Part shown: one piece after another, positions 30,376-30,545 of the stretch
Layout of the letters: each line of letters opens with the position of its first letter
Position numbering within the stretch: position 1 is the first letter of the stretch
Origin: Escherichia coli
GTDB taxonomy: Bacteria > Pseudomonadota > Gammaproteobacteria > Enterobacterales > Enterobacteriaceae
Assembly (NCBI RefSeq): GCF_045037415.1
Contig: NZ_CP173438.1
Direction: 5' to 3' (one strand)
DNA length: 64,000 nt
Notes under the pieces: generated by a model
Seen by the model: only the letters and a program-made list of their open reading frames with translations
What the model was told of the DNA's origin: nothing
The model's database searches: none
Translations under genes and position numbers: made by a program

Positions 30376-30545
30376 GGAATCAGGTTCTCCTTTTTGTTAT
30401 GCATTTTCCTGTTAAGATTTTTCTAATCACGTTGTTTTTATCCAGGCATTTCTCTTGTATGTACTTTCAGTATAAGAGATTTATACAAGAAAGCATTTAA
30501 AAAGGCATTTATATAAAAATCCACCTGTATCTGTTGCTATTTCTG

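What the first reader, a model, noticed from the sequence alone, without database searches (positions are those of the whole stretch)
30376..30545. yjbB upstream region now abuts foreign AT-rich DNA
The yjbB promoter region is directly continuous with the AT-rich islet and the co-directional membrane-protein gene ends ~170 bp upstream of yjbB. Read-through or H-NS-type silencing spreading from the AT-rich insert could change yjbB expression relative to strains without the insert.
Basis: inference. Interest (0 to 1): 0.25.

Follow-up and report, generated by a model that had tools for sequence, protein, structure and literature searches.

The report
yjbB promoter beside H-NS-bound islet
The 170 bases upstream of the phosphate-exporter gene yjbB are a worn-down copy of that gene's usual control region, sitting at the edge of a small AT-rich, H-NS-coated gene islet carried by about a fifth of E. 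coli genomes; this is a real but ordinary strain polymorphism, and its effect on yjbB expression is untested.

Summary
yjbB starts at 30375 (- strand). A co-directional 149-aa membrane-protein gene (here g149) ends at 30546, and the 170-bp gap is 30.6% GC. The gap belongs to a 1,014-bp, 34% GC segment that replaces the 195-bp K-12 metH-yjbB spacer. This "long allele" is in 1,132 of 5,426 complete E. coli genomes, including CFT073, ST131 and IAI39. It is also in E. whittamii and one E. fergusonii.

The gap is a degraded copy of a yjbB control module shared across Enterobacteriaceae. It keeps the -10-like core (CTTTCTT-N10-CTTATACTG, 30493..30468) and the leader with Shine-Dalgarno (30411..30376). 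It has lost the 11-bp terminator hairpin and the Pho box that K-12 has.

No terminator separates g149 from yjbB. Published CFT073 ChIP-seq (identical gap) shows both islet genes strongly bound by H-NS and StpA (0.63 and 0.55 on a 0-1 scale). yjbB is not in that bound list.

g149 belongs to an unannotated family found in type VI secretion clusters and, repeatedly, just upstream of yjbB.

H-NS occupancy and missing insulation are real; an effect on expression is unproven. Interest is low to moderate.

The parts
31416..35114 (-). metH (methionine synthase). Its last ~10 nt differ from K-12: the protein ends ...GYDAE instead of ...GYDAD.
31384..31407 (-). Intrinsic terminator after metH (ACCGGGGTATTTGCCCCGG + T5), specific to the long allele. 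It replaces the ancestral hairpin as the metH terminator.
   Evidence: (-17.7 kcal/mol); the stem is conserved in E. whittamii
31038..31356 (-). First islet gene (here g106). In this window it is a pseudogene, broken by two single-A deletions near 31283 and 31245. It is intact at 106 aa in CFT073 (c4977), strain A10 and E. fergusonii. No known family.
30546..30995 (-). Second islet gene (here g149): 149 aa, predicted helical membrane protein, equals CFT073 c4978. Under purifying selection. Member of an unannotated family associated with type VI secretion clusters.
   Evidence: (dN/dS 0.13)
30376..30545 (-). The finding: the 170-bp g149-yjbB gap, 30.6% GC. It is the yjbB 5' control region of the long allele.
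30524..30536 (-). CAACAGATACAGG, a possible remnant of the conserved CTTACAACAAACAGGG that opens the ancestral terminator hairpin. The hairpin itself is gone.
   Evidence: similarity judged by eye, not statistically tested
30468..30493 (-). Conserved promoter core CTTTCTT-N10-CTTATACTG. The -10-like hexamer TATACT is at 30474..30469. There is no matching -35.
   Evidence: invariant in E. whittamii, E. fergusonii and A10
30431..30452 (-). GAAATGCCTGGATAAAAACAAC, a block in the presumed 5' leader. It is invariant among long alleles including E. whittamii and absent from short alleles. Function unknown.
30376..30411 (-). Conserved leader CAGGAAAATGCATAACAAAAAGGAGAACCTGATTCC with Shine-Dalgarno AAGGAG at 30392..30387. 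This is the only part of the gap that BLAST aligns with K-12.
28744..30375 (-). yjbB (Na/Pi cotransporter family; annotated in K-12 as putative phosphate exporter), GTG start.

Best explanation
The 170 bp are the 5' control region of yjbB in an old alternative ('long') allele of the metH-yjbB spacer.

Ancestral state. Enterobacteria carry a compact module between metH and yjbB. It reads: an optional Pho box, CTTACAAC, an 11-bp terminator hairpin, CTCTTTCTT-N-CTTATACTG, a variable stretch, then CAGGAAAACGnATAACGATAAGGAG and the GTG.

What changed. In the long allele a two-gene AT-rich islet (g106 and g149, names used here for the 106-aa and 149-aa genes) with its own metH terminator lies upstream of this module, and the module has decayed. 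The -10-like core and the leader with Shine-Dalgarno survive. The hairpin and the Pho box do not.

Shown by sequence or published data:
- yjbB is no longer insulated from upstream transcription.
- It lacks the PhoB site that K-12 has.
- It lies directly against an H-NS/StpA filament that covers g106 and g149 in CFT073.

Inferred, not shown:
- yjbB is still transcribed mainly from the conserved TATACT core, with a start expected near 30462 and a leader of about 85-90 nt.
- H-NS at the AT-rich edge lowers or conditions that promoter.
- Read-through from g149 matters only when the islet is de-silenced.
For: Anatomy and boundaries.

Conserved module: it is present in K-12, Salmonella, Klebsiella, Enterobacter, Pseudescherichia, and in loci where a g149 homologue precedes an intact module.

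Core retained in the window:
- CTTATACTG occurs once in 64 kb, at 30476..30468.
- The best local alignment of the distal gap to three of five short alleles (K-12, Salmonella, Enterobacter) is the CTTTCTT...CTTATACTG core, and to the other two (Klebsiella, Pseudescherichia) only the CTTATACTG(A) part (0/500 to 134/500 shuffles).
- A profile of eight modules has its top window-wide hit at 30492..30465, with E = 2 for 128 kb. By my rescaling, not a tool result, this is roughly 0.003 if only the 170-nt gap is searched.

Constraint: the gap is 82.4% identical to E. whittamii. That is a Jukes-Cantor distance of about 0.20 by my calculation, against dS 0.43 (yjbB) and 0.65 (g149). It is at least 99% identical in 1,093 of 1,132 E. 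coli carriers.

Hairpin lost: -5.8 against -16 to -22 kcal/mol; no terminator found.

Pho box lost: position-weight-matrix score 15.6 in K-12 and 14.2 in Salmonella, against a best sense-strand score of 9.6 in the gap. The K-12 site is a PhoB ChIP-chip site (PMC3465305).

H-NS and StpA on c4977/c4978 in CFT073. Gap identical to the window.
Against: - I could not retrieve any transcription start data for yjbB in any strain, so the promoter assignment rests on conservation alone.
- The core has no acceptable -35, and the consensus scan calls no sense-strand promoter in the gap or in the K-12 spacer.
- The profile match is not significant window-wide (E = 2).
- yjbB is not among the H-NS-bound genes in CFT073, so silencing of yjbB itself is unproven.
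- The PhoB paper reports no expression change for yjbB, so loss of the Pho box may have no consequence.
- No Lang-type H-NS motif (TCGATAAATT, up to 2 mismatches) falls in the islet.
Confidence: 0.55

Rival explanations
1. Operon reading. The gap has no promoter of its own. In long-allele strains yjbB is the third gene of a g106-g149-yjbB transcript driven from the promoter-like site beside the new metH terminator (TTGCCC-17-AATAAT, 31397..31369).
For: All three genes share a strand, and there is no terminator in the gap. No canonical -35/-10 pair is found in the gap. A promoter-like site lies upstream of g106. In Phytobacter the g149 homologue ends only 91 bp before yjbB, again with no hairpin.
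Against: The same TATACT core sits upstream of yjbB in genera where only a strong metH terminator lies upstream (Klebsiella, Enterobacter). There it must act as, or beside, the promoter. g106 and g149 are strongly H-NS/StpA-bound in CFT073, so an islet promoter should be largely silent. E. whittamii lacks g106 and its upstream region but keeps the gap. The count of promoter-like sites in the islet does not exceed that of shuffled sequence (3 observed against 3.8 expected).
Confidence: 0.2
2. H-NS nucleated on the islet spreads over the yjbB promoter and substantially silences yjbB compared with short-allele strains.
For: The islet genes have high H-NS/StpA occupancy that persists in the hns deletion strain. 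The gap is the most AT-rich piece (30.6% GC) and is contiguous with g149.
Against: yjbB/c4979 is not in the list of bound genes. A review table lists yjbB among CFT073 transposon-library fitness candidates for bladder and kidney colonisation (PMC8882828), which implies the gene is expressed in vivo. The gap is under constraint, as expected for a working control region.
Confidence: 0.15
3. The gap holds a separate element, such as a small RNA, leader structure, upstream ORF or repeated protein-binding site, that is specific to the long allele.
For: AAATGC occurs four times in 170 nt; only 3 of 2,000 shuffles reach four copies of any complex hexamer. The block GAAATGCCTGGATAAAAACAAC is invariant from E. 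coli to E. whittamii.
Against: No Rfam match lies in the gap; two weak matches elsewhere in 30200..31600 are far below gathering score. Folding energy is ordinary (z = +0.47). Three of the four AAATGC copies are each mutated in at least one relative. The 11-codon ATG ORF that overlaps the yjbB start is absent from K-12 and Salmonella (read directly from the sequences).
Confidence: 0.07
4. Neutral polymorphism. The long and short alleles give equivalent yjbB expression, and the differences in the gap have no consequence.
For: Both alleles are common and stable. YjbB protein is nearly identical in both (dN 0.001 against K-12). In K-12 the PhoB site showed no expression effect.
Against: The loss of a strong terminator and a Pho box, together with the gain of an adjacent H-NS filament, are all changes of kinds known to alter expression. 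This is an inference, not a measurement.
Confidence: 0.3

Closest known systems
K-12 metH-yjbB intergenic region (219 bp between the two genes, of which 195 bp are unalignable with the window; NC_000913.3 4227512-4227730), including its PhoB ChIP-chip site GATTCACAAATCTGTCAC
   Same: Same flanking genes, same start codon, same Shine-Dalgarno leader, and the same CTTATACTG -10-like core upstream of yjbB.
   Different: K-12 has a Pho box that overlaps the metH stop and an 11-bp terminator hairpin (-19.6 kcal/mol) just before the core, with no gene in between. The window has neither element and carries two extra genes plus a different metH terminator.
H-NS/StpA xenogeneic silencing of AT-rich lineage-specific genes, as mapped in CFT073 by Hustmyer et al. 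2022 (PMC9765446)
   Same: The islet is AT-rich and lineage-specific, and its two genes are in the published H-NS-bound set. Their occupancy is comparable to ariR (0.66) and above csgB (0.48).
   Different: The islet is only about 1 kb and sits directly on the control region of a core gene. The core gene itself is not scored as bound. De-repression of the islet or of yjbB in hns mutants was not looked up or tested.
Orphan immunity or accessory genes of type VI secretion (T6SS) effector-immunity cassettes
   Same: g149 homologues (30-37% identity) lie inside T6SS clusters next to vgrG, PAAR and Rhs genes. They often follow, and overlap, a ~269-aa partner that carries a precomputed DUF8093 hit. 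The same pair also occurs upstream of yjbB in other enterobacteria.
   Different: The E. coli copy has no such partner; tblastn finds no remnant. No member matches a Pfam, NCBIfam or PADLOC model in the scans run here. An immunity function is inferred from context only.
Back-to-back terminator-promoter modules between convergently regulated core genes
   Same: In short alleles the T-tract of the metH terminator (CTCTTTCTT) doubles as the upstream part of the yjbB core.
   Different: In the long allele the terminator half has decayed and only the promoter half is kept.

Membership tests
H-NS-bound xenogeneic islet | Markedly lower G+C than the host genome over several hundred bp | tested here: met
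   33.9% GC over 1,014 bp against 52.6% for the window
H-NS-bound xenogeneic islet | Lineage-restricted distribution | tested here: met
   Present in 1,132 of 5,426 E. coli genomes and absent from K-12, Salmonella, Klebsiella and Enterobacter
H-NS-bound xenogeneic islet | H-NS occupancy in vivo | tested here: met
   Published CFT073 ChIP-seq gives c4977 0.627 and c4978 0.553, with a cut-off of 0.07. The CFT073 gap is identical to the window's. This window's own strain was not measured.
H-NS-bound xenogeneic islet | De-repression when hns/stpA are deleted | not tested
   The per-gene RNA polymerase table (sheet 1A) is truncated in the held copy before this locus
H-NS silencing extended to yjbB | H-NS occupancy over yjbB or its promoter | tested here: inconclusive
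   yjbB/c4979 is absent from the bound-gene list. The table has gene-level resolution only, so the 170-bp gap cannot be judged.
Sigma-70 promoter in the gap | -10 hexamer close to TATAAT | tested here: met
   TATACT at 30474..30469 (5 of 6), conserved across genera
Sigma-70 promoter in the gap | -35 hexamer at 16-18 bp spacing | tested here: not met
   No sense-strand site passes the scan, either here or in K-12
Sigma-70 promoter in the gap | Mapped primary 5' end | not testable with these tools
   The supplements searched held no yjbB entry, and two papers were not held
Intrinsic terminator between g149 and yjbB | Stable GC-rich hairpin followed by a T-tract | tested here: not met
   (-5.8 against -16 to -22 kcal/mol in short alleles)
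Pho regulon promoter | 18-bp Pho box in sense orientation upstream of the gene | tested here: not met
   Best sense-strand score in the gap is 9.6, on an AT-rich low-complexity site, against 15.6 in K-12 and 14.2 in Salmonella. Other lineages have CTGTCACATAACTGTCAT.
g149-yjbB operon | Same strand, short gap, no terminator | tested here: met
g149-yjbB operon | A transcript spanning both genes | not testable with these tools
   No RNA data accessible
T6SS immunity protein (for g149) | Encoded next to a cognate effector in a T6SS, vgrG or Rhs context | tested here: inconclusive
   True for distant homologues (L019, L032, L035). Not true for the E. coli copy. It is not shown that the ~269-aa partner is an effector.
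T6SS immunity protein (for g149) | Match to a described immunity family | tested here: not met
   No Pfam, NCBIfam or PADLOC hit

The most novel reading that the evidence does not exclude
The link between g149 and yjbB may be functional rather than accidental. Members of this unannotated four-helix membrane-protein family sit immediately upstream of yjbB in at least five diverged lineages:
- Escherichia;
- the L016/L017 lineage;
- the L023-L029 lineage;
- L030;
- Phytobacter.

Their identity to the E. coli protein is only 30-40%, while MetH and YjbB stay 89-97% identical. In Escherichia and Phytobacter no terminator intervenes.

Two readings follow. The small protein could be an accessory subunit or modulator of the YjbB phosphate exporter. 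Alternatively, the yjbB 5' flank could be a dedicated landing site for T6SS-type cassettes whose silencing state is read out by yjbB.
Probability: 0.12. Interest if true: 0.5.

Novelty: new member of a known kind. Interest (0 to 1): 0.27.

Why it matters
yjbB encodes a putative phosphate exporter. A review table lists it among CFT073 transposon-library fitness candidates for bladder and kidney colonisation (PMC8882828). The B2 and F lineages that dominate extraintestinal infection (CFT073, ST131, IAI39) all carry the long allele.

If the allele changes how yjbB responds to phosphate, through loss of the Pho box, or ties it to H-NS/StpA, it would be a small example of regulatory rewiring of a core gene by a neighbouring silenced islet.

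On present evidence this is a plausible hypothesis attached to an ordinary polymorphism. The by-products are an explicit map of the conserved yjbB control module and the recognition of a T6SS-associated family that recurs at this locus.

Tried and rejected
1. Transcription start data for yjbB. The supplements of SMRT-Cappable-seq, Kim et al. 2012 and Adams et al. hold no yjbB entry. The Cappable-seq GTF is truncated. Thomason 2015 and Kröger 2012 are not held.
2. Rfam at a permissive threshold on 30200..31600 gave nothing in the gap.
3. RNA folding of the gap showed no excess structure.
4. The H-NS high-affinity motif TCGATAAATT (up to 2 mismatches) has 82 hits in the window and none in the islet. 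I therefore did not use it as evidence.
5. Pfam, NCBIfam and PADLOC scans of both islet proteins and of 22 family members found nothing.
6. AlphaFold models of g149 (pLDDT 46) and g106 (pLDDT 39) were too poor for a fold search, so none was run.
7. g106 as a remnant of the ~269-aa partner protein was rejected: blastp and tblastn found nothing.
8. The 'distant' hits P0024 and P0025 turned out to be error-rich assemblies of the same E. coli locus.
9. The reading that the Escherichia allele is a recent insertion specific to phylogroup B2 was rejected. It is in an arpA-positive strain (A10), in IAI39, in E. whittamii and in E. fergusonii.
10. A literature search for c4977/c4978 returned only unrelated papers.
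11. A family-wide alignment was too diverse for the metagenome scan. A narrower alignment worked.

Full report
**What is at the coordinates**

The window is E. coli, inverted relative to K-12. The local order on the - strand is as follows:
- metH, 35114..31416;
- a terminator, 31407..31384;
- a frameshifted 106-codon gene, 31356..31038, called g106 here;
- a 149-codon membrane-protein gene, 30995..30546, called g149 here;
- a 170-bp gap, 30545..30376;
- yjbB, 30375..28744.

GC content falls from about 55% in metH and yjbB to 33.9% over 30412..31425 and 30.6% in the gap. This is the longest low-GC run in the 64 kb.

**Comparison with K-12 and with the species**

BLAST against K-12 loses homology between 30411 and 31426. 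So 1,014 bp here replace 195 bp of K-12. The flanks are about 96% identical, with somewhat more mismatches next to the junctions. Only the proximal 36 bp of the gap align.

The long allele covers at least 80% of a 1.4-kb probe in 1,131 of 5,426 complete E. coli genomes. The gap alone is found once each in 1,132 genomes. It is always chromosomal and is at least 99% identical in 1,093 of them. Carriers include CFT073, an O25b:H4-ST131 strain and IAI39.

The window lacks arpA. However, the allele is not simply a marker of arpA-negative strains. 1,308 genomes share the arpA-less junction, and the arpA-positive strain A10 carries the islet.

**The gap is a decayed copy of a conserved yjbB control module**

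I laid out the metH-yjbB spacers of K-12, Salmonella, Klebsiella, Enterobacter and Pseudescherichia. They share a common order:
- a Pho box in K-12 and Salmonella, or a half box elsewhere;
- CTTACAAC;
- an 11-bp hairpin;
- CTCTTTCTT-N-CTTATACTG;
- a variable stretch, which holds a REP element in Salmonella;
- CAGGAAAACGnATAACGATAAGGAG and the GTG.

The window keeps CTTTCTT-N10-CTTATACTG (30493..30468), one base shorter than elsewhere, and the leader with Shine-Dalgarno (30411..30376).

The evidence for this homology is modest but consistent:
- CTTATACTG occurs once in the window, at this site.
- The best local alignment of the distal 125 nt of the gap to K-12, Salmonella and Enterobacter is the CTTTCTT...CTTATACTG core; to Klebsiella and Pseudescherichia it is only the CTTATACTG(A) part. 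Shuffles reach the score 0, 4, 13, 17 and 134 times out of 500.
- A profile built from eight modules has its best window-wide hit at 30492..30465. The E-value is only 2 for the whole window. By my rescaling it is roughly 0.003 if the search space is the gap alone.

The gap also evolves slowly. It is 82.4% identical to E. whittamii, a Jukes-Cantor distance of about 0.20 by my calculation. Synonymous divergence between the same genomes is 0.43 in yjbB and 0.65 in g149. The most variable part is the stretch where the hairpin used to be.

**What has been lost**

The hairpins of the five short alleles fold at -15.9 to -21.8 kcal/mol. The equivalent stretch here folds at -5.8. The pattern scan finds a terminator in K-12 but none in the gap, and the gap as a whole has ordinary folding energy (z = +0.47).

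A Pho-box position weight matrix scores 15.6 for K-12 and 14.2 for Salmonella; only one and two window positions, respectively, score as high. The K-12 site is exactly the PhoB ChIP-chip site reported at -212.5 of yjbB (PMC3465305). The best sense-strand score in the gap is 9.6, on an AT-rich low-complexity run. A new, unrelated terminator follows metH at the far side of the islet.

**H-NS**

CFT073 carries the long allele with both genes intact, and its gap is identical to the window's.

Data set S1E of Hustmyer et al. 2022 (PMC9765446) lists 'H-NS bound genes'. Occupancy is scaled from 0 to 1, where 1 is the mean of the top 20 genes and the cut-off is 0.07. The two islet genes are recognisable by their lengths.

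| Gene | Length | H-NS, wild type | H-NS, hns deletion | StpA, wild type |
|---|---|---|---|---|
| c4977 | 321 nt | 0.627 | 0.261 | 0.608 |
| c4978 | 450 nt | 0.553 | 0.228 | 0.517 |

Both genes are still scored as bound in the hns deletion strain. For comparison, the same sheet gives csgD 0.32, csgB 0.48 and ariR 0.66.

The next entry after c4978 is c4983. Neither 'yjbB' nor 'c4979' occurs anywhere in the file. So yjbB is not H-NS-bound by that paper's gene-average criterion. The table cannot resolve the 170-bp gap.

The Lang-type H-NS motif has no match in the islet. The support for H-NS therefore comes from the ChIP data and from composition, not from a motif.

**What the islet genes are**

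Neither protein matches Pfam, NCBIfam or PADLOC. Word-indexed searches find them only in Escherichia.

g149 is a real gene. It is intact in all six sequences compared, and dN/dS is 0.13 against E. whittamii.

An exhaustive profile search found 72 cluster representatives of a ~140-150-aa family. Its invariant residues are W13, D17, P35, D39, Q95, R99, S106, E133 and K136. The genomic contexts fall into two groups:
- **Closer homologues** (30-40% identity to the E. coli protein) lie between metH and yjbB in other enterobacteria. They usually follow, and overlap, a ~269-aa protein that carries a precomputed DUF8093 hit. In Phytobacter the homologue sits directly before yjbB with no metH nearby.
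- **More distant homologues** sit inside T6SS clusters. One context reads ClpV, PpkA-like kinase, ~267-aa partner, g149-like gene, VgrG. Another has a GHSLGG-motif protein, an ankyrin lipoprotein, a g149-like gene and VgrG. A third is a VgrG-PAAR-Rhs array.

In the L016 and L023-L029 lineages the full yjbB module lies downstream of the g149 homologue. It includes an intact hairpin. L023-L029 also keep a near-consensus Pho box, CTGTCACATAACTGTCAT (CCGTCAT in L028), whereas L016 keeps only a half box. This shows where the cassette enters and what Escherichia has since lost.

g106 is unrelated to the ~269-aa partner. It is broken here by two single-A deletions.

**History**

Genera that lack the genes share the compact module, so the short state is ancestral.

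E. whittamii has metH, the same new terminator stem, a REP-like stretch, g149, the gap and yjbB. Its divergence is similar to that of the flanking genes, which argues that the arrangement is old.

In an assembly labelled E. fergusonii, the islet and metH are close to E. coli (g149 dS 0.11) but yjbB is not (dS 0.96). A recombination breakpoint therefore falls at the yjbB start.

Pseudescherichia has an Abi_2 gene at the same spot. The site is a small hot spot for cargo exchanged by homologous recombination.

**How it most likely works**

Shown:
- There is no terminator and no Pho box in the gap.
- A conserved -10-like core and the leader are present.
- H-NS and StpA coat the two adjacent genes in a strain with an identical gap.

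Inferred:
- yjbB is transcribed from the conserved core. It lacks a -35 in every allele, so it is probably weak or dependent on an activator.
- The neighbouring filament dampens or conditions that promoter.
- Read-through from g149 becomes relevant only when the islet is de-silenced.

The main rivals are a pure operon model, strong H-NS silencing of yjbB, a separate element in the gap, and neutrality. None is excluded. I put neutrality of expression at about 0.3.

**Verdict**

The feature is real and the description correct. It is a new instance of a familiar situation, an H-NS-bound AT-rich islet next to a core-gene control region, and it has no measured phenotype. The recurrent placement of this T6SS-associated family in front of yjbB is the only mildly surprising element.

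Noticed in passing
window 21557..27875: A ~6.3-kb segment between rluF and pepE is absent from K-12. It encodes a sorbose-type PTS and sorE (L-sorbose 1-phosphate reductase), as annotated in CFT073.
   Followed up: partly
window 36131..36154 and 11325..11329: arpA and xylE are missing relative to K-12: the iclR-aceK and psiE-malG sides are joined directly. The arpA-less junction is shared by 1,308 of 5,426 genomes.
   Followed up: partly
window near 31283 and 31245: Two single-A deletions in A-runs frameshift the 106-codon gene here. CFT073, A10 and E. fergusonii have it intact. Genomes identical to the window are annotated 'frameshifted'.
   Followed up: yes
L008:914-1611 (strain Ecol_AZ153): An IS1 element is inserted in the g106 part of the islet in one otherwise identical genome.
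   Followed up: no
L012:1446-2315 (Pseudescherichia): A different cargo gene, an Abi_2 family protein, occupies the same metH-yjbB position with the intact yjbB module downstream. The spacer looks like a small integration hot spot.
   Followed up: partly
L009 and L010 (E. fergusonii-labelled assembly and a Logan contig): metH and the islet are ~94-95% identical to E. coli, but yjbB is only 84.7% identical (dS 0.96), and a DUF2058 gene replaces pepE downstream. This indicates an interspecies recombination breakpoint at the yjbB start.
   Followed up: partly
window 30401..30510 (- strand): The hexamer AAATGC occurs four times in the 170-bp gap (starts at 30510, 30498, 30451 and 30406). This is rare in shuffles (3 of 2,000), but three of the four copies are each mutated in at least one related long allele.
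   Followed up: yes
L002:511-568 and the same module in L011, L013, L014, L016, L023-L029: In short alleles the Pho box is followed by an invariant CTTACAAC and then immediately by the terminator hairpin. A PhoB-dependent start there would fall at or inside the hairpin. I could not explain what this arrangement does.
   Followed up: no
L032:2205-3456, L016:3217-4453, L023:2142-3459, L028:542-1802: A ~269-aa protein (precomputed DUF8093 hit; no hit in the Pfam copy scanned here) and the g149-like gene form an overlapping pair. The pair occurs both inside a T6SS cluster and upstream of yjbB, and the partners are 44-55% identical across these contexts.
   Followed up: partly
window 35126..35143 (+ strand): A sequence scoring 14.2 on the Pho-box matrix (ATTTAATAAAAATTCAAC) lies in the metH-iclR intergenic region. 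It is AT-rich and may be a chance match.
   Followed up: no
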